Below are positions 2,892 through 22,283 of a DNA stretch of 44,798 bases, in pieces. The notes beneath the pieces are model-generated. The model did no database searches. It saw only the letters and a program-made list of their open reading frames with translations, and was not told where the DNA came from. This DNA is from Escherichia phage SECphi18. Each line of letters opens with the position of its first letter. Within the stretch, counting starts at the first letter, position 1. The position numbers were made by a program, and so were the translations under genes. The stretch is taken from the sequence record LT960609. The stretch is one strand, 5' to 3'.

Positions 2892-2976
2892 ATTTTGGGT
2901 GTTTTTATCCGGTCGTATTGGTTGCCGTGTCGTGTAAATATAGTGAATAGTTATGCAATAAAACTGCATAAACTAA

Positions 2977-3078
2977 GCGGGACAAAAAGCGGGACAAACA
3001 TGAGGCGGGACAAAGCGGGACAGCACCCCTGTCCCGCCCCGGATGACGCGGCCTGGCGAGGAGCGGGACAGCGGGACA
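2977..3078. repeat. Iteron cluster A: six direct GCGGGACA copies plus one inverted copy
   Basis: GCGGGACA at about 2977, 2989, 3005, 3015, 3063, 3071; inverted TGTCCCGC at about 3030; non-coding. Confidence 0.7.
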
Positions 3079-3138
3079 GCACCCCAGTCTTTCAGACTAG
3101 ACGGGGTCAGTGGCCCCCCCCCGTCTGAGACTGAATAA
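3064..3138 (+). other. Conserved ~75-nt structured element, copy A (paralog at 19504-19578)
   Basis: cgggacagcgggacagcaccccagtctttcagactagacgggg...ccccgtctgagactgaataa; hairpins agtct/agact and agacgggg/ccccgtct. Confidence 0.55.
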
Positions 3139-3294
3139 AATCCGGGAGATTGCAAAATACACGGCAGCATGATGCGGATTGCGGTCGTTGATGAACTAGG
3201 CAACCAATGCGGGGTGTATTATGCTGAGTGAAAAATGCGGTTTGCAGTTACAGCAGATAGCGATCGACTTTTTCATGCGCGTGATTAATATTGG

Positions 3295-14590: not shown

Positions 14591-15691
14591 ATGTCTTTAA
14601 CAGTGTTCCAGCGTAAACTCGTTACCGCGGTTACGCAAATGATCCCCGACAACCTGAACGTTTTCAACGCCGCCGCCAATGGTGCTGTTGTTCTCGGTAC
14701 TGGTGAAGTGCTGAAGGATGTTGTAGAAAAAATGTCCGTAGGCTTGATCGCCAACCTTGTTACCGACCGTAACGCCTACGCCCCTGTCGGTACTCCGGCA
14801 ACCGCTAAAGTGCTGGCGCGTATGCTGACCAACTCCGTTAACCTATCCGCGAAAGTGGGTCCGGTAGCGATCACTAAGGCTATGATGGCTAAAATCGAAA
14901 CCAACGTTAACAGCGTTGCGGCTGAGATTGCGGCACAGGCTACTCAAGCGATTATGCTGCATTACCTGAAAGCGGGTATCGGTGCGGGTAAAGCGGCGAT
15001 CGAGAGCAACAACAACGCGGTATACACCCAACCGGCGCGCGTTGACGGCGTTGGCGGTCGTACCTTCCCGACCCTGGCAGACTTCCCGCTGGCGGCTTCT
15101 AAGTTCGGCGATCAGGCGTCTTTAATTAAGTCCTGGTTTATGGACGGCGTTACCTGGGCAAACTTCATTGCGTACCAGGCACTCCCGTCCGCTGAACAGG
15201 TATTTGCAATTGGCGATCTCCAGGTAATGGGTGATGGCCTAGGCCGTCGTTTCATTATCTCCGACGCCGCTGCGGATGCTATGGGTGCTGGTAAAATGCT
15301 GGGTCTGGTTCCTGGCGCGGTTGCAGTTACCACCAACGGCCTCGATATGCTGGCGCAGGAGAAAGGCGGTAACGAGAACATCGAACGCTGGTGGCAGGGC
15401 GAGTTCGACTTCAACGTGGCCGTTAAAGGCTACCGTCTGAAGGCGTCCGCTCGTACCCCGATCGAAGGTGTGCGCTCGTTCAAACTGGACGATATTACCA
15501 CTTCCGCTAACTGGGAACTGGACCAGGGCCAGGTAGACAACGCACCGGCAACCGTGCAGGATGTTGGCGCTGTGGGTGATGGCGATACTAAAGGCCGTCG
15601 TAAGACCCAGGCCGCACAGGCAGTGCCTACCCGTCACATCAAGGAAACCGCTGGCGTACTGGTTACGCTGACGGCGACTACCGCGTCTTAA
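14591..15691 (+). CDS. Major capsid protein
   Basis: 366 aa; RBS aaagga; position after scaffold; followed by a strong terminator. Confidence 0.7.
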   Translation: MSLTVFQRKLVTAVTQMIPDNLNVFNAAANGAVVLGTGEVLKDVVEKMSVGLIANLVTDRNAYAPVGTPATAKVLARMLTNSVNLSAKVGPVAITKAMMAKIETNVNSVAAEIAAQATQAIMLHYLKAGIGAGKAAIESNNNAVYTQPARVDGVGGRTFPTLADFPLAASKFGDQASLIKSWFMDGVTWANFIAYQALPSAEQVFAIGDLQVMGDGLGRRFIISDAAADAMGAGKMLGLVPGAVAVTTNGLDMLAQEKGGNENIERWWQGEFDFNVAVKGYRLKASARTPIEGVRSFKLDDITTSANWELDQGQVDNAPATVQDVGAVGDGDTKGRRKTQAAQAVPTRHIKETAGVLVTLTATTAS

Positions 15692-17303: not shown

Positions 17304-17725
17304 TGAGCAATACTCTAATCCGCAAGGCGCTTAACAGCGTTGTCGAAGAGCTATCGGTTAGCCTGAGCACTAGCACGCGCCCGATAAAGGTTAACTGGGA
17401 GAACGTGAGCGGCGACCACGCAAACGGCAGCGGTGTCTACCTGGAACCATATCTGCTTCCGGCCCCGACCCAGTTTGTGGGCTTCCAGCAGAAGGGCCGG
17501 ATCTATGCAGGTGTGTATCAGGTCGCCGTGGTATTTCCTGCGGGCACTGGCACACAGTATGCGAGCGAACTGGCGGACGCCATCGCGACGTCTGACAAGT
17601 GGCGGGCCGTAAGGCTTGCAGGCGCTTCATTCCAGCTTCAGGACGCGCCATACACCAGTTCAGTGATTGAGGATGTTGATCGCGCCCGCATCGTGGTTAC
17701 AGTCCCCTACACCTGTTGCGCCTGA
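17303..17725 (+). CDS. Tail terminator/completion protein candidate
   Basis: 140 aa; ATG overlaps upstream stop (TAATG); precedes the major tail gene. Confidence 0.4.
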   Translation: MSNTLIRKALNSVVEELSVSLSTSTRPIKVNWENVSGDHANGSGVYLEPYLLPAPTQFVGFQQKGRIYAGVYQVAVVFPAGTGTQYASELADAIATSDKWRAVRLAGASFQLQDAPYTSSVIEDVDRARIVVTVPYTCCA

Positions 17726-17785
17726 TTTGGCGCATTTCTGCGCGTGCTGTATCATTAATCCGTATATCTAAACAGGAGCTTCATT

Positions 17786-18511
17786 ATGGGTTATCAACTT
17801 CCTAACGGGTCCAGCGTCCAGATTGGGTCCGTACTGGGTAGCGGCATCGCTGTTACGGCAGCTACCAACGCCGCAGCGTCGATCTCCGACCTTACGCAAG
17901 GTTGCGTAATTACCTGTGCGGCTTCGCATGGTCTGGTTGTTGGCGACGTTGTTATGTTCACTAAAACCCCGTGGGTCCGAGCGCTTAACCGCGCATTCAT
18001 CGTGGGTAAAGTGGACACCAACGACGTTACGCTGGCGCGCTTCGACACCGAAGACGTCACAAAATACCCGACCGGCGCTTTCAGCGTAGGCACTCCGGGC
18101 GAAGTGGTGAAGGTGTCGGGCTTTATCGACTTCCCTTTCATTACTAACGTTGCCGTGTCTGGTGGCGACCAGCAGACGACTACCTTCCAGCCGTTGCAGG
18201 TGAACACCGCAATCAGTCTGAACACCACGAAAAACCCGTTAGTACAGACTTACACTTTCACCCACGACGAAGAAGACCCGATCCGCCCAATCCTGGAAGA
18301 CCTGGACGACACACAGAAAACCACTGTGATCAAGTTCACTAACCCAGCGGCAGCAAGCGGCAAAGGTGAGATCCGTATTTACCCGGCTAAGGTATCTTTC
18401 CAGAAGATTCCTTCCGCTGAAGTAAACAACGTGGAAACGGTGCAATCCACTCTGACCATGCAGTCTGATATGGTTATCTACCGTAAGGATCTGGTCGAGG
18501 CATTGTCTTGA
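17786..18511 (+). CDS. Major tail protein
   Basis: 241 aa; RBS aggagc; followed by a terminator and the G/GT chaperone genes. Confidence 0.6.
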   Translation: MGYQLPNGSSVQIGSVLGSGIAVTAATNAAASISDLTQGCVITCAASHGLVVGDVVMFTKTPWVRALNRAFIVGKVDTNDVTLARFDTEDVTKYPTGAFSVGTPGEVVKVSGFIDFPFITNVAVSGGDQQTTTFQPLQVNTAISLNTTKNPLVQTYTFTHDEEDPIRPILEDLDDTQKTTVIKFTNPAAASGKGEIRIYPAKVSFQKIPSAEVNNVETVQSTLTMQSDMVIYRKDLVEALS

Positions 18512-18541
18512 TTTGGTCGCTTAAATAGCGAGTGATAATAT

Positions 18542-18565
18542 GGGGCCAGCACGGCCCCTTTTTTA
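18542..18565 (+). terminator. Intrinsic terminator after the major tail gene
   Basis: ggggcc-agcac-ggcccc followed by T6. Confidence 0.6.
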
Positions 18566-18580
18566 TTGGAGAATATTACA

Positions 18581-18943
18581 ATGGCTAAAGCACCACTCTT
18601 CACACTTGACCCTAAGCCAACCTTTAAGCTGCCGATTGAGATCCCGCGCCCTGGTGAGAACGAACCCGGCAAGATGACTTTTACCGTCCGCCACCGCCCG
18701 ATCGACGAATTTTCGCAAACCATGCAGGACACCGAACGCAAGTTGTCTGAATATGACGACAATGACCCGGACGGCTTTAACGTTATGGTCGAGGCCATCA
18801 TGCACGTCGCTGAAGGCTGGAATCTGCCGGATGAATTTAACGCAGAGAACGTCCGCCGCCTGGTGGTCAACTACCCACGCGCGTTCGGTGTGTTCCACAC
18901 GTCGTACTATCTCGAGCTGATGGGGTTGCGAGAAAAAAACTAA
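18581..18943 (+). CDS. Tail assembly chaperone (gpG-like)
   Basis: 120 aa from ATG with RBS ggag; ends just after a slippery A_AAA_AAC heptamer. Confidence 0.6.
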   Translation: MAKAPLFTLDPKPTFKLPIEIPRPGENEPGKMTFTVRHRPIDEFSQTMQDTERKLSEYDDNDPDGFNVMVEAIMHVAEGWNLPDEFNAENVRRLVVNYPRAFGVFHTSYYLELMGLREKN

Positions 18944-19257
18944 TTGAGGCGGCGCGACGCTTTTATGGCCCGCCGCCACCCTCCGAAGATTTAGCCGCAA
19001 GTTTATGGGGCGCGGCCCCCGAAGATGTTTGTCCGCCTGTTGCGCTATGGCCCGACAACGCGAAGGTAGTCGCAGTCTTCACAGATTGCTCCACGCAATG
19101 GCGCACCGGATTTGGTGGCGCATACGGCATCGACTACGGCGTGCTGGAGTGGTTATTTAAGATGCACGGTATCGAAAACGAGCAGCGCGCGTTTAAAGAT
19201 ATCAAGCTAATGGAACGAATCGCGCTTGATGAGATGGCGCAGCAGAACCCCGCATAA
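18581..19257 (+). CDS. Tail assembly chaperone GT fusion via programmed -1 frameshift
   Basis: Slippery A_AAA_AAC at about 18934-18940; -1 frame stays open about 103 codons to TAA at about 19255-19257; no in-frame start of its own. Confidence 0.5.
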
Positions 19258-19261
19258 TGAA

Positions 19262-19518
19262 GCGGGACAAAAGCGGGACGTCCCGTTTTGTCCCGCCCTG
19301 TAAAACCGCATATCTAATCTCTTTCATTGCATAAACTCAAAGCGGGACAGGCGGGACGTCCCGTTTTGTCCCACCCCGAAATGTGCATACCTATTCGAAT
19401 TTCGTGCATAAAACAAACGGGACAAAAAGCGGGACAGCATAGGGGCGGGACAAAGCGGGACAGCACCCCGTCCCCACCAGTGCTGCCGCGGGTTTTAGCC
19501 GATCGGGACAGCGGGACA
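19262..19518. repeat. Iteron cluster B: about nine GCGGGACA-type copies with GGGACGTCCC palindromes
   Basis: Units of about 80 nt: tgcataaa, then GCGGGACA, then GCGGGACgtcccg; non-coding block inside the tail module. Confidence 0.7.
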
Positions 19519-19578
19519 GCACCCCAGTCTTTCAGACTAGACGGGGGTCAACGGCCCCCCTCGTCTGAGACTGAATAA
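19504..19578 (+). other. Conserved ~75-nt structured element, copy B (paralog at 3064-3138)
   Basis: Matches copy A except for a few changes in the second hairpin that keep pairing through a G-U wobble. Confidence 0.55.
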
Positions 19579-19640
19579 GGATTGTTTTAAAATCGCTGAT
19601 ACAATGTCAATCGGCAACTGCATAAAAAGGGGACTGCATA

Positions 19641-22283
19641 ATGGCAGATCAAGCGGCAGGCATCACGCTGAAGGCTGATGTTGCACAAATCAGAACGGCA
19701 AATACTGTGCTGGACTCCTTCGCACAGAAATCCGAGAACACAGAAAACAAGGTTAAGAAATTAAACGACACCCTCGGCAAATCCAAAAAGGTGACGAGTG
19801 ACGCCGCGGGCGGAATGGAAAAGCTGGCAAACGAATCGCAGCGCGCCGCCGATGGCATGACGAAACAGGAGCGACTCGCCAACAGGTTAGGGATGTCGAC
19901 TAAAAACCTGGGCTTTGCCTCGCGTAACGCCGCATTCCAGCTACAGGATATTGCGGTAACGCTTGAGATGGGGATGCCGGTTCACCGCGTCATGCTTCAG
20001 CAGTTACCGCAGCTAACTGGGGCGTTCGGTGGACTGGGTAACACGCTGCGTTATGTTGCGGGCTTCCTCGGCCCAGTAGGGATCGGCCTTGCCGCCGTAA
20101 CGGCAACGTTAGGCGTGGGCGTGGCAATTACGTCCCGCGCAGAGAACCAGGTCGCCGCGCTTAACAAGACGCTGGCACTTTCCGGTAACATTTCCGGCCT
20201 GACGGCAAACCAGATCCTGGTGCTATCCGAGAACGCCGAGCGCATGGGCGGGTCGTTCCGCAAGACGCGTGACACAATCCAGGCGCTGGCGGCGGCGGGG
20301 GTGAAAGCGGGTGGTGACTTCGGTGCACTGGCGAAGGTAGTGAATGACTTCTCGAAGGTGTCCAGCCAGCCGATCGAGGATGTGGTCGCGGCGGTGGCGA
20401 AGCTGTCTACCGACCCGGTAGGCGGCTTGCGAGCATTGGCTGATAAGTATCACGTCGTAAACGAAGCGCAGATCCAGCAGGTGCAGTCACTAGTGACGGC
20501 TGGTCGCGAAACCGAAGCGGTGGCGCTGGCTAACAAAACAGCCGCGGCGTCGTTTACCACTATGACCAATGAGATCAAGTCCAACATGGGTACGCTTGAG
20601 CGGTCGATGAACGTCGTTACATCGGCAGCTAAATCTATGTGGGATGCTATCCTGGATGTTGGACGCGCGCAGTCCTCGAATGAGTCTGAGATGAAGGCGC
20701 GTGAGTCATTGCAGCGGCTGACAACGGCTTACTATGCCGAGATGAAAGCGGTAAACGCTGCCGGCGGGGTGATGACCGACGCGCAGAAAGCGCGTATTAA
20801 CATGCTTTACAGCGAACTGGTCGCCCAGGAAAAGGTGGTGGCGTCGCTTACCCTGCGTAACCGAGCCGAGCGAGACAACGCAAGTGCCGCGGACGAAGCA
20901 GCAAAGGCGAACGAAGAGGCCAACCGCACCGCCCGCGACCGCGCCGCGTTCGAGAAGGAGTACGCAACCAACGCGAAGAGGCGCGCCGACGAGATCGCCC
21001 GCCTCAATTTGCTTAATAAGCGCGGCGTGATTGACGAGAAAGAGCTTGCCGAGGCGGTGAAGCAGGTAAACGAGCGTTACAAAGACCCCGCCCCGAAGAA
21101 GGCCGCCGCTGTTCGAGTCGATGCCGGGCTGAAAATGCTGGAAGTCGCGCGAAGCGAATTAGCCCAGCTTCGTGAGTCTGGAAAGCAGATCGAAGCCAAC
21201 GCATCGACGCAGACCCGCACGCAACGCGCGCAGGCGGCCCTAAACAAGCTGATTGCCGACAACGAGCAGTTAATCGCTGCGAGCAAAGAAAGGGCGCTGA
21301 CGGCAGCAGAGAAGCAGCAATTAGTCGAGTTCGGGCGCGTGAAGGAAGTCCGCGAGCAGATCGTCGAAGAAGCCAAATTGCTGGACGCGAAAGAGAAGCA
21401 GGTCAAGGCGCACGCGCAGATCGACGCCTTCGTTAAGAACCAGAACGCCGAGCTAAAAGCCACCGCGGCGGGCTATGCGCTTTCCACTCGCGAAGCGGCT
21501 AACCTGCGCGAAGAATTGCAGCTAATTGACCGCCTTAAGCGGGTGGGCGCTAGTGATACCGATATTGATCTGGCAGTGTCTAAACTGCGCGAAGTGCAGG
21601 AAGCACAGACCGGTGCTAACGCCTCACTATGGGATGGATTCAGCCGTGGGCTTAAGGATAGCGTGGATGAAATGGGTAACGGCTATACGCAGATGGCGTC
21701 ACTCACAAAATTCACGTTCGGCGCTATGCAGGACACGATGAACGAGTTTTTCGAGACTGGCAAGCTGAACGCAAAGGATATGGTTAAGTCCATCCTGAGC
21801 GAATTAATAAAGCTGGCTACATCGCAGGCATTCAAGTCCATCGTTAGCGCTTTCGGTGGCGACGGTGGAAAAAACGGGTTGTTCGGCGCTATCTTCTCCG
21901 GCCTCACTAAGAATGCGGACGGCGGAGCGTACGCAGGAGGCAATCTCGCATCCTATTCGGGGAAAGTGGTAAGCCAGCCTACCTTTTTCAGTTATGGCGT
22001 CCAGGCGTTCGCTAAGGGCGCGGGATTGATGGGTGAGGCTGGACCCGAGGCCATCATGCCACTGAAGCGCGGGCCGGACGGGAAACTGGGCGTTGCCGCG
22101 TCTGGCGCAGGCGGTGGTATGGTCGTGACGACTAACGTTTACACGGGGACCGGTAAAACGGATACCAGTGTCAACGGGCCGGACCCACGTACCGCGCAGG
22201 CGTTCGGCAAGCAAATCACCGAGGCGGTGAAGGCCGAGATCGTGAAGGCGACGAAACCGGGTGGTGTACTTTACAAACGATGA
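19641..22283 (+). CDS. Tail tape measure protein
   Basis: 880 aa; long Ala/Lys/Glu-rich helical protein after G/GT; Gly-rich C-terminal region. Confidence 0.85.
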   Translation: MADQAAGITLKADVAQIRTANTVLDSFAQKSENTENKVKKLNDTLGKSKKVTSDAAGGMEKLANESQRAADGMTKQERLANRLGMSTKNLGFASRNAAFQLQDIAVTLEMGMPVHRVMLQQLPQLTGAFGGLGNTLRYVAGFLGPVGIGLAAVTATLGVGVAITSRAENQVAALNKTLALSGNISGLTANQILVLSENAERMGGSFRKTRDTIQALAAAGVKAGGDFGALAKVVNDFSKVSSQPIEDVVAAVAKLSTDPVGGLRALADKYHVVNEAQIQQVQSLVTAGRETEAVALANKTAAASFTTMTNEIKSNMGTLERSMNVVTSAAKSMWDAILDVGRAQSSNESEMKARESLQRLTTAYYAEMKAVNAAGGVMTDAQKARINMLYSELVAQEKVVASLTLRNRAERDNASAADEAAKANEEANRTARDRAAFEKEYATNAKRRADEIARLNLLNKRGVIDEKELAEAVKQVNERYKDPAPKKAAAVRVDAGLKMLEVARSELAQLRESGKQIEANASTQTRTQRAQAALNKLIADNEQLIAASKERALTAAEKQQLVEFGRVKEVREQIVEEAKLLDAKEKQVKAHAQIDAFVKNQNAELKATAAGYALSTREAANLREELQLIDRLKRVGASDTDIDLAVSKLREVQEAQTGANASLWDGFSRGLKDSVDEMGNGYTQMASLTKFTFGAMQDTMNEFFETGKLNAKDMVKSILSELIKLATSQAFKSIVSAFGGDGGKNGLFGAIFSGLTKNADGGAYAGGNLASYSGKVVSQPTFFSYGVQAFAKGAGLMGEAGPEAIMPLKRGPDGKLGVAASGAGGGMVVTTNVYTGTGKTDTSVNGPDPRTAQAFGKQITEAVKAEIVKATKPGGVLYKR

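What the first reader, a model, noticed from the sequence alone, without database searches (positions are those of the whole stretch)
18934..19257. Programmed -1 frameshift producing a G-T tail chaperone fusion
Slippery heptamer A_AAA_AAC sits at the end of the gpG-like gene; the -1 frame stays open for about 103 codons with no start of its own and ends just before the iteron block. This is the conserved G/GT arrangement of long-tailed phages.
Basis: partly seen in the sequence, partly recalled or inferred. Interest (0 to 1): 0.45.

Follow-up and report, generated by a model that had tools for sequence, protein, structure and literature searches.

The report
Tail chaperone G/GT frameshift site
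This is the ordinary, well-known ribosomal -1 frameshift that long-tailed phages use to make a small amount of a longer tail-assembly chaperone (G-T) alongside the short one (G); it is real and conserved here, but public records of this phage genus leave it unannotated.

Summary
The window is a Dhillonvirus, an HK578-like E. coli siphophage. Gene G (18581-18943, 120 aa) matches Pfam Phage_TAC_4 and ends in A_AAA_AAC (18934-18940) followed directly by TAA. The -1 frame runs 105 codons from 18940 to 19257 and matches Pfam DUF1799. Its first ATG/GTG/TTG is at 19141, inside that domain, so it cannot be made on its own. Among 21 distinct Dhillonvirus sequences, changes in the extension are 238 synonymous to 66 non-synonymous in the -1 frame, against 36:270 and 25:283 in the other two frames. 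In 20 of 21 relatives a -1-frame TGA sits just before the heptamer, so the overlap is only AAAAAAC plus the stop. GAAAAAAAC plus a stop, with T in the -1 frame, is kept in 64 T1-like contigs whose G is only about 42% identical; phage T1 has GCAAAAAAC TAA. A Webervirus homologue carries an annotated frameshift product. A GC-rich hairpin (18948-18977) starts 7 nt after the heptamer, and synonymous variation is suppressed across heptamer, spacer and hairpin (p = 2e-5). Verdict: a new member of a known kind, of low interest, mainly an annotation gap. The repeat block that follows the T stop is a separate and more unusual feature.

The parts
17786..18511 (+). Major tail protein gene (upstream context)
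   Evidence: phrog_584 major tail protein, E = 6.6e-74; annotated as major tail protein in relatives.
18542..18567 (+). Intrinsic-terminator-like hairpin plus T run between the major tail gene and G. It probably lowers transcription of G/GT and the tape measure gene relative to the major tail protein.
   Evidence: Terminator scan: GGGGCCAGCACGGCCCC followed by TTTTTTATTG. A terminator is annotated at the same place in vB_Eco_CS16 and in T1.
18581..18943 (+). Gene G: tail assembly chaperone, 120 aa, 13.96 kDa, the 0-frame product
   Evidence: Pfam PF08748 Phage_TAC_4, E = 1.4e-23, full length; phrog_569, E = 1e-40; synonymous:non-synonymous 452:18 among relatives.
18934..18940 (+). Slippery heptamer A_AAA_AAC in X_XXY_YYZ phase
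   Evidence: Sequence. Invariant in 22 Dhillonvirus sequences and in 64 contigs whose G is about 42% identical; T1 has the same heptamer. In 20 of 21 relatives a -1-frame TGA directly precedes it, so the G/T overlap is only this heptamer plus the stop.
18941..18943 (+). 0-frame stop codon TAA directly 3' of the heptamer
   Evidence: Sequence. A stop (TAA or TGA) follows the heptamer directly in all 64 distant contigs with GAAAAAAAC and in T1.
18948..18977 (+). Predicted stimulatory hairpin: 7 G-C pairs (GGCGGCG 18948-54 with CGCCGCC 18971-77) plus inner pairs, 7 nt after the heptamer
   Evidence: MFE fold, -17.1 kcal/mol over the 53 nt from 18941, in which this hairpin is the only predicted structure. 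T-frame third positions 18942-18977 vary at 1 of 12, against 68 of 93 further downstream (Fisher p = 2e-5). The only two variable columns, 18955 and 18957, are unpaired in the fold. T1 has a hairpin at the same 7-nt spacing, z = -5.0.
18940..19257 (+). T extension: -1 frame, 105 codons plus TAA, with no start codon of its own before 19141
   Evidence: Pfam PF08809 DUF1799, E = 2.7e-21; phrog_680, E = 8.7e-31. Synonymous:non-synonymous 238:66 in this frame against 36:270 and 25:283 in the other two. tblastn finds homologues in 1158 phage records.
18581..19257 (+). Predicted GT fusion CDS, join(18581..18940,18940..19257): 225 aa, about 25.6 kDa. Residue 120 is Asn after a tandem slip, or Lys after a P-site-only slip.
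   Evidence: phrog_17368 (213 positions) matches fusion residues 1-223, E = 1.2e-32; masses.
19641..22283 (+). Tape measure protein gene (downstream context; presumed client of G and GT)
   Evidence: phrog_24 tail length tape measure protein, E = 3.9e-182.

Best explanation
This is a programmed -1 ribosomal frameshift of the lambda G/GT type. Most ribosomes translate G (18581-18943) and terminate at TAA, giving the 14-kDa chaperone. A small fraction slip back one base on A_AAA_AAC (18934-18940), with tRNA-Lys and tRNA-Asn re-pairing to AAA_AAA, or with peptidyl-tRNA slipping alone. The slip is probably helped by the GC-rich hairpin 7 nt downstream (18948-18977), and possibly by the adjacent stop codon. 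Those ribosomes then read CTA ATT GAG and onward to 19257, giving a 225-aa G-T fusion that carries a C-terminal DUF1799 domain. By analogy with lambda, G and the G part of GT coat the tape measure protein (19641-22283), and the T domain recruits the major tail protein (17786-18511). The fixed low GT:G ratio is set by frameshift efficiency, and neither protein ends up in the virion. Shown here: the anatomy of the site, that the -1 frame codes for protein, that it has no start of its own, the family assignment, and the conservation of site and frame. Inferred: the slip itself, its efficiency, the role of the hairpin, and the protein-protein contacts.
For: Anatomy of the site. G matches Phage_TAC_4 and the extension matches DUF1799. 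A PHROG profile spans the whole fusion. The gene sits in the canonical position between the major tail and tape measure genes. Purifying selection acts on the -1 frame: 238:66 against 36:270 and 25:283 in the other frames. The overlap is reduced to the heptamer plus the stop in 20 of 21 relatives. GAAAAAAAC plus a stop, with T in the -1 frame, is found in 64 of 64 distant contigs with G about 42% identical; T1 has GCAAAAAAC TAA; relatives with only A4 runs (Sweeny, Wooten_MM7) still have T in the -1 frame. RefSeq annotates the Sweeny homologue as a joined 'tail assembly chaperone frameshift product'. Synonymous variation is suppressed exactly over heptamer, spacer and hairpin (p = 2e-5), and the only variable columns are unpaired. 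The lambda mechanism and its roughly 30:1 G:GT ratio are described in PMC5009743. The same review reports A_AAA_AAC as a g-t shift site in the archaeal virus HCTV-2.
Against: No protein evidence exists for the fusion. In E. coli, A_AAA_AAC is much less shift-prone than A_AAA_AAG (PMC5009743); this is compatible with a low ratio but means efficiency cannot be assumed. The hairpin is not significant against shuffles in the window alone (z = -1.1 to -1.5). No covarying consensus structure was found in the 42%-identity group. Sequence conservation of the hairpin is partly confounded by its coding role. G and T are not sequence relatives of lambda gpG and gpT, so the functional roles rest on analogy.
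Confidence: 0.9

Rival explanations
1. Transcriptional slippage. RNA polymerase stutters on the run of 7 A (18933-18939) and inserts an extra A in a fraction of mRNAs. These mRNAs encode G-T in a single frame, so the fusion is made without any ribosomal slip.
For: The run is A7, and it is conserved as A7 in Dhillonvirus and in the 42%-identity group. Inserting one A would give the same frame change and a Lys at position 120. Transcriptional slippage on A/T runs is an established route to frame change in bacteria (PMC5009743).
Against: T1 has A6, and Sweeny and Wooten_MM7 have only A4, yet all keep T in the -1 frame; the family mechanism therefore cannot depend on a long homopolymer. The nucleotide-level constraint extends 37 nt beyond the A run and ends at the 3' edge of a hairpin placed at the spacing typical of ribosomal stimulators, which transcriptional slippage does not need. 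From my own knowledge, efficient slippage by E. coli RNA polymerase generally needs runs of about 8-9 or more.
Confidence: 0.05
2. Independent or re-initiated translation of T. The extension is made as a separate protein from a non-canonical start near 18943 (for example ATT 18943-18945) after termination at TAA, rather than as a fusion.
For: Gene callers report most DUF1799 homologues as stand-alone ORFs of 65-135 aa. An ATT codon lies in the T frame, overlapping the G stop.
Against: There is no ATG/GTG/TTG in the T frame before 19141, which lies inside the DUF1799 domain. No Shine-Dalgarno-like sequence precedes 18943. The codons at that position are not conserved as potential starts: CTG ATA in the 42% group and CTA AAA in T1, whereas the heptamer is conserved. 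The stand-alone calls are what a gene finder returns when it cannot model a frameshift. A PHROG family models the fusion as one protein.
Confidence: 0.03
3. Not a functional recoding site. The T frame is a decaying remnant, or the G/T split is a homopolymer sequencing error in what is really a single ORF.
For: Homopolymer runs are error-prone in sequencing. None of the 60 sampled Dhillonvirus records, of 151 matching, annotates anything sensible over T.
Against: The identical A7 run and frame relation appear in 22 independently sequenced Dhillonvirus genomes and in 64 distant contigs. The T frame is under strong purifying selection. A Pfam domain is intact at E = 2.7e-21.
Confidence: 0.01

Closest known systems
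Bacteriophage lambda G/GT programmed -1 frameshift (Levin, Hendrix & Casjens 1993; Xu, Hendrix & Duda 2004, 2013, 2014; as summarised in PMC5009743)
   Same: There are two overlapping ORFs between the major tail and tape measure genes. The second ORF is in the -1 frame and has no start of its own. A slippery heptamer lies in the last codons of G. The expected result is a low-abundance fusion that works as a chaperone and is not part of the virion.
   Different: The heptamer is A_AAA_AAC rather than lambda's G_GGA_AAG. G and T belong to other sequence families (Phage_TAC_4 and DUF1799; no other Pfam hit at E <= 1). A 380-nt repeat-rich non-coding block separates T from the tape measure gene instead of the two being closely juxtaposed.
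T1-like phages (Drexlerviridae): T1 genes ST40/ST39, and the Webervirus Sweeny 'tail assembly chaperone frameshift product' (YP_009902927.1)
   Same: The protein families are homologous: G is 36-39% identical and T 34-40% identical. Gene order is the same, a terminator precedes G, and T is in the -1 frame. T1 has the same A_AAA_AAC heptamer followed by TAA and a hairpin 7 nt downstream.
   Different: Sweeny uses a shorter A_AAA_G-type site. In these phages T ends right at a terminator and the tape measure start, with no GCGGGACA repeat block. In the T1 record itself only a 55-aa fragment of T is annotated.
E. coli dnaX gamma/tau -1 frameshift
   Same: It is a lysine-codon A-rich heptamer with a downstream stem-loop stimulator, decoded in the same host.
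   Different: dnaX uses A_AAA_AAG, which is far more shift-prone in E. coli than A_AAA_AAC (PMC5009743), together with an upstream Shine-Dalgarno-like stimulator. No conserved Shine-Dalgarno-like element is seen here, because the Gly codon upstream varies as GGG, GGA or GGC. From my own knowledge, dnaX shifts at about 50% and truncates the protein rather than extending it.
Haloarchaeal virus HCTV-2 g-t frameshift
   Same: It uses the same heptamer, A_AAA_AAC, for the tail chaperone g-t shift (PMC5009743).
   Different: The host is an archaeon, and no sequence relation was tested.

Membership tests
G/GT-type programmed -1 frameshift in tail assembly chaperone genes (Xu et al. 2004 definition) | Two ORFs located between the major tail protein gene and the tape measure gene | tested here: met
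   Major tail 17786-18511, G 18581-18943, T frame to 19257, tape measure 19641-22283. Caveat: there is a 380-nt non-coding gap before the tape measure gene.
G/GT-type programmed -1 frameshift in tail assembly chaperone genes (Xu et al. 2004 definition) | The downstream ORF overlaps the end of the upstream one, is in the -1 frame, and lacks its own initiation signal | tested here: met
   The frame relation is -1. The first ATG/GTG/TTG in the T frame is at 19141, inside the DUF1799 domain.
G/GT-type programmed -1 frameshift in tail assembly chaperone genes (Xu et al. 2004 definition) | A slippery sequence in the correct phase inside the overlap, conserved among relatives | tested here: met
   A_AAA_AAC at 18934-18940. 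It is invariant in 22 Dhillonvirus and 64 distant loci, and the overlap is reduced to the heptamer plus the stop in 20 of 21 relatives.
G/GT-type programmed -1 frameshift in tail assembly chaperone genes (Xu et al. 2004 definition) | The -1 extension is a real coding sequence under selection | tested here: met
   Synonymous:non-synonymous 238:66 in the -1 frame against 36:270 and 25:283 in the others. Variable columns by codon position 1, 2 and 3 are 22, 9 and 69.
G/GT-type programmed -1 frameshift in tail assembly chaperone genes (Xu et al. 2004 definition) | A fusion protein is made at a low, fixed ratio to G | not testable with these tools
   This needs mass spectrometry, western blotting or a reporter assay.
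G/GT-type programmed -1 frameshift in tail assembly chaperone genes (Xu et al. 2004 definition) | G and GT are required for tail assembly, bind the tape measure and major tail proteins, and are absent from virions | not testable with these tools
   This needs genetics and biochemistry, and is inferred only by analogy with lambda (PMC5009743).
Pfam PF08748 Phage_TAC_4 (G part) | Score above the curated gathering cut-off over the full profile | tested here: met
   83.9 bits against a cut-off of 21.1; profile positions 1-124 of 124.
Pfam PF08809 DUF1799 (T part) | Score above the curated gathering cut-off over the full profile | tested here: met
   76.0 bits against a cut-off of 26; profile positions 1-80 of 80.
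Lambda gpG / gpT sequence families | Sequence similarity to lambda's own G and T protein families | tested here: not met
   A Pfam scan at E <= 1 returned only Phage_TAC_4 and DUF1799. The site therefore works like lambda G/GT but is not a sequence-level member of lambda's protein families. Which Pfam families hold lambda gpG and gpT is from my memory and was not tested.
Canonical bacterial -1 PRF signal (heptamer plus 3' RNA stimulator) | A stable RNA structure 5-9 nt downstream of the heptamer | tested here: inconclusive
   A hairpin with 7 G-C pairs starts 7 nt downstream, but its shuffle z-score is only -1.1 to -1.5. In favour: suppressed synonymous variation ends exactly at the 3' edge of the stem, and the variable columns are unpaired; T1 has an analogous hairpin with z = -5.0. 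Against: no covariation in the 42%-identity group.

The most novel reading that the evidence does not exclude
The most novel reading not excluded is that this genus has uncoupled the chaperones from their tape measure client. A genus-specific block of about 380 nt separates T from the tape measure gene. It holds GCGGGACA repeats and palindromes and a long hairpin, and about 190 nt of it is duplicated just downstream of the helicase-primase gene. The block might be a second protein-binding or replication/transcription control region placed between GT and the tape measure gene. If so, the GT:G:tape-measure stoichiometry would be set by DNA- or RNA-level regulation as well as by the frameshift. 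For the frameshift itself, the conserved flanking stops (a -1-frame TGA immediately 5' and a 0-frame stop immediately 3' of the heptamer) could indicate a stop-stimulated P-site slip rather than the classical tandem slip.
Probability: 0.1. Interest if true: 0.4.

Novelty: new member of a known kind. Interest (0 to 1): 0.15.

Why it matters
The main value is for annotation. None of the 60 sampled Dhillonvirus GenBank/RefSeq records, of 151 that match, annotates the GT fusion. They leave the T region blank or fill it with spurious small 'hypothetical proteins'. Adding a join(18581..18940,18940..19257) feature would correct a whole genus. The site also gives a clean natural example of A_AAA_AAC, a heptamer regarded as weak in E. 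coli, being conserved across phage families. A clear signature of synonymous constraint delimits a candidate stimulatory hairpin. This could be used to study how low frameshift efficiencies are tuned. It does not open a new biological question.

Tried and rejected
1. A word-indexed protein search with the conceptual fusion returned only 3 hits and no close relatives, so it was uninformative. I used tblastn against phage records and viral contigs instead.
2. The conceptual fusion could not be submitted for structure prediction or for the representative search, because it is not an exact translation of the window.
3. A single-sequence AlphaFold model of G had a mean pLDDT of 55. That is too poor for fold comparison, so I ran no fold search.
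4. A PDB sequence search with the fusion found nothing below E = 0.9.
5. NCBIfam has no model for either part.
6. An Rfam scan of the whole window found nothing at gathering thresholds.
7. RNAalifold on 35 distinct junction sequences of the 42%-identity group gave a weak consensus (-7.2 kcal/mol) with no compensatory changes. A family-wide conserved structure is therefore not demonstrated.
8. I considered and rejected an upstream Shine-Dalgarno-like stimulator, because the GGG upstream is a Gly codon whose third base varies.
9. Literature searches for Dhillonvirus or HK578 plus 'frameshift' found no paper describing this site.
10. Record OM262540.1 listed 'major tail protein' under the T match, and the match lies inside that CDS in the record's coordinates. 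It is not a joined GT feature, so I ignored it.

Full report
**What the window is.** The region 17700-20700 is 95-96% identical to many Escherichia phages of the genus Dhillonvirus (HK578-like siphophages such as TheodorHerzl, Gluttony and jat). 157 phage records match.

PHROG assignments give the gene order around the finding:
- major head protein, 14591-15691
- head-tail adaptor
- head closure protein
- tail completion protein
- tail terminator
- major tail protein, 17786-18511
- the gene in question, 18581-18943
- tape measure protein, 19641-22283
- minor tail proteins

This is the canonical siphovirus tail module.

**Checking the observation.** Searches give the anatomy directly.
- G starts at ATG 18581 and ends ...TTG CGA GAA AAA AAC TAA, with TAA at 18941-18943 (120 aa).
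- The heptamer A_AAA_AAC occupies 18934-18940 in X_XXY_YYZ phase.
- The 0-frame stop follows it immediately.
- In the -1 frame, the codon starting at the re-read C (18940) begins a run of 105 sense codons ending at TAA 19255-19257.
- The first ATG/GTG/TTG in that frame after the heptamer is GTG 19141, with 38 codons left. Nothing resembling an independent start covers the extension.
- The first GCGGGACA repeat begins at 19262, so the extension does end just before the repeat block.

**Is it more than chance?**
- AAAAAAC is under-represented in the window: 3 occurrences against 7.8 expected.
- Twelve + strand structural genes contain five in-frame X_XXY_YYZ heptamers. Four lead to -1 frames that close after 2-28 codons inside the same gene. 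Only the one at 18934 lies at the end of its gene and opens a 105-codon frame beyond it.
- The extension matches Pfam DUF1799 (PF08809) at E = 2.7e-21 over the whole 80-position profile.
- G matches Pfam Phage_TAC_4 (PF08748, 'phage tail assembly chaperone') at E = 1.4e-23 over the whole profile.
- In PHROGs, G hits phrog_569 and the extension hits phrog_680. The 213-position phrog_17368 aligns with residues 1-223 of the conceptual fusion at E = 1.2e-32. A family of full-length G-T proteins therefore already exists in phage annotation.

**The -1 frame is the frame under selection.** I aligned 21 distinct G-T sequences from Dhillonvirus records and viral contigs. The alignment is gap-free over 677 columns.
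- In the extension, variable columns fall 22, 9 and 69 on codon positions 1, 2 and 3 of the -1 frame.
- Differences from the window are 238 synonymous to 66 non-synonymous in the -1 frame. In the other two frames they are 36:270 and 25:283.
- For G, the ratio in its own frame is 452:18.

**Locating the shift site.**
- In the window, the -1 frame happens to be open from 18841.
- In 20 of the 21 relatives in which I located the site, the Arg codon before GAA is CGT rather than CGA. This creates a -1-frame TGA immediately 5' of the heptamer.
- In those genomes the G/T overlap is therefore only AAAAAAC plus the stop. A shift into T can only happen on the heptamer.

**Distant relatives.**
- tblastn finds G homologues in 1102 phage records and T homologues in 1158. 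They are mostly T1-like Drexlerviridae of Escherichia, Klebsiella, Shigella and Salmonella, with some from Ralstonia, Pseudomonas and others.
- Of 66 viral contigs whose G is only about 42% identical, two had no detectable T match. All 64 in which both G and T were detected end G with GAA AAA AAC followed directly by TGA or TAA, and all have T in the -1 frame.
- Phage T1 itself has GCA AAA AAC TAA.
- Klebsiella phages Sweeny and Wooten_MM7 have shorter sites (GCAAAAGTT and CAAAAGAGT) but still have T in the -1 frame.

The frame relation is thus conserved across the family, and the exact heptamer is conserved well beyond what protein conservation requires.

**A downstream stimulator.**
- RNAfold places a hairpin 7 nt after the heptamer: GGCGGCG (18948-54) pairs with CGCCGCC (18971-77), with a few inner pairs, at -17.1 kcal/mol.
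- Against dinucleotide shuffles this is not significant in the window (z = -1.1 to -1.5).
- RNAalifold on the 42%-identity group showed no compensatory changes.
- Two other observations support the hairpin. First, T1 has a different hairpin (GGCGGUU/AACCGCC) at the same 7-nt spacing with z = -5.0.
- Second, synonymous variation collapses exactly over heptamer, spacer and hairpin in the Dhillonvirus alignment. T-frame third positions 18942-18977 vary at 1 of 12, against 68 of 93 for the rest of T (Fisher p = 2e-5). No column varies in 18932-18954 or in 18958-18977. Variation resumes at 18978, one base after the stem. The only two variable columns, 18955 and 18957, are unpaired in the predicted fold.
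- That test ignores phylogenetic non-independence, so the p-value is indicative only. I regard the hairpin as probable but not proven.

**Mechanism.** The best-supported explanation is a lambda-type programmed -1 ribosomal frameshift.
- Most ribosomes make G (13.96 kDa).
- A minority slip on A_AAA_AAC and make a 225-aa, roughly 25.6-kDa G-T protein.
- Residue 120 would be Asn after a classical tandem slip. It would be Lys after a P-site-only slip or after insertion of an A.
- The Atkins et al. review (PMC5009743) summarises the lambda paradigm. The G:GT ratio is about 30:1. G and the G part of GT bind the tape measure protein, T binds the major tail protein, and neither is in the virion.
- The same review states that in E. 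coli A_AAA_AAC is much less shift-prone than A_AAA_AAG, which fits a low-efficiency site. It also reports A_AAA_AAC as the g-t shift site of the archaeal virus HCTV-2.
- An intrinsic-terminator-like hairpin with a T run at 18542-18567 separates the major tail gene from G, as it does in T1 and CS16. This fits lower expression of the chaperones and tape measure than of the tube protein.

**Rivals.**
- *Transcriptional slippage on the A7 run.* This would give the same frame change. However, relatives with A6 and A4 keep the -1 arrangement. The constrained stretch also reaches 37 nt past the A run and ends at a hairpin edge, which points to the ribosome. I give it about 5% as the main route.
- *Independent initiation or re-initiation of T.* This is disfavoured. 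There is no canonical start before 19141, and no conserved near-cognate start across the family. The many 65-135-aa stand-alone DUF1799 entries in the representative library (1117 at E <= 0.001) are what gene callers produce when they cannot model a shift. I give it about 3%.
- *Sequencing error or pseudogene.* This is excluded by 22 + 64 independent genomes with the same arrangement and by purifying selection.

**Comparison with the known.**
- Functionally and architecturally this is the G/GT arrangement of Xu, Hendrix and Duda.
- At the protein level it belongs with the T1-like TAC_4/DUF1799 pairs, not with lambda's own G and T families. Pfam gave no other hit at E <= 1.
- There is no sequence relative in the PDB, and NCBIfam has no model.
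- Eight Dhillonvirus records examined in detail annotate only G, under names such as 'hypothetical protein', 'tail assembly chaperone', 'tape measure chaperone' or the PHROG-derived misnomer 'tail length tape measure protein'. They leave T blank or cover it with small ORFs in the wrong frame or with the 38-aa tail of T.
- A spread sample of 60 of the 151 records that match the 5' part of T shows 'none' or 'hypothetical protein' throughout.
- No paper in the searchable library links Dhillonvirus or HK578 with a frameshift at this site.

The site is therefore an ordinary, unannotated member of a known kind.

**Seen in passing.**
- The 380 nt between the T stop and the tape measure start are unusual for a G/GT-tape measure module. 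T1 and Sweeny have only a terminator there.
- This stretch holds 7 of the window's 16 exact GCGGGACA octamers, against 2.35 expected. Some form near-palindromes, such as 19262-19296 and 19342-19374. A long hairpin follows at about 19525-19573.
- About 190 nt of the block (19385-19580) is duplicated at 2940-3140 with 85% column identity. That copy lies immediately downstream of the replicative helicase-primase gene at 552-2816.
- The block is conserved in position in the Dhillonvirus loci and absent from the Drexlerviridae relatives.
- Rfam has no match to it.
- I did not work out what it is. Candidates are binding sites for a phage DNA-binding protein, either at a replication origin or as transcription control. 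It deserves its own evaluation.

**Verdict.** Confidence in a programmed -1 ribosomal frameshift producing a G-T chaperone fusion is about 0.9. Novelty is low (a new member of a known kind, in effect an annotation gap), and interest is about 0.15.

Noticed in passing
window 19258-19580: A genus-specific non-coding block of about 320 nt lies between the T stop and the tape measure gene. It holds 7 exact GCGGGACA octamers; the whole window has 16 against 2.35 expected. It also has two near-palindromes (GCGGGACAAAAGCGGGAC|GTCCCGTTTTGTCCCGC at 19262-19296, and a second copy at 19342-19374) and repeated TGCATAAA motifs. The block is conserved in Dhillonvirus loci and absent from T1-like relatives, which have only a terminator there. 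One record (jat) labels part of it 'repeat_region'. Its function is unknown.
   Followed up: partly
window 2940-3140 and 19385-19580: A module of about 190 nt is present twice (85% column identity). It consists of a GCGGGACA array followed by an almost identical long hairpin (CAGTCTTTCAGACTAGACGGGG...CCCCGTCTGAGACTGAATAA). The first copy lies just downstream of the replicative helicase-primase gene (552-2816). This suggests an origin-like or regulatory element duplicated into the tail module. Rfam has no match.
   Followed up: partly
window 18542-18567: A strong intrinsic-terminator-like hairpin (GGGGCC...GGCCCC followed by TTTTTTATT) lies between the major tail protein gene and G. A terminator is annotated at the same position in vB_Eco_CS16 and in T1. 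It probably sets the major tail protein in excess over the chaperones and tape measure.
   Followed up: partly
window 21869-21875: A second in-frame A_AAA_AAC heptamer lies inside the tape measure gene. Its -1 frame closes after 11 codons, so any slip would only give a truncated product. It served as a chance control, and I did not check its conservation.
   Followed up: partly
window 18931-18933 (CGA GAA) versus relatives (CGT GAA): In 20 of 21 relatives a -1-frame TGA directly abuts the 5' side of the heptamer. This window has lost it (AGA), so its -1 frame is open from 18841. The flanking stops on both sides of the heptamer may be selected, but I did not test whether they are.
   Followed up: no
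phage records OM262540.1 (L112) and MG065648.1 and similar: In OM262540.1 the T-region match falls inside the CDS annotated as major tail protein, which I did not resolve. Several records named 'Campylobacter phage' (A144, A118 and others) carry G/T sequences identical or nearly identical to those of coliphages, which suggests mislabelled or contaminant records.
   Followed up: no
PHROG-derived product names in many phage records: G and T homologues are widely labelled 'tail length tape measure protein'. The PHROG families 569, 680 and 17368 carry that description, and it spreads a misnomer for the chaperones.
   Followed up: no
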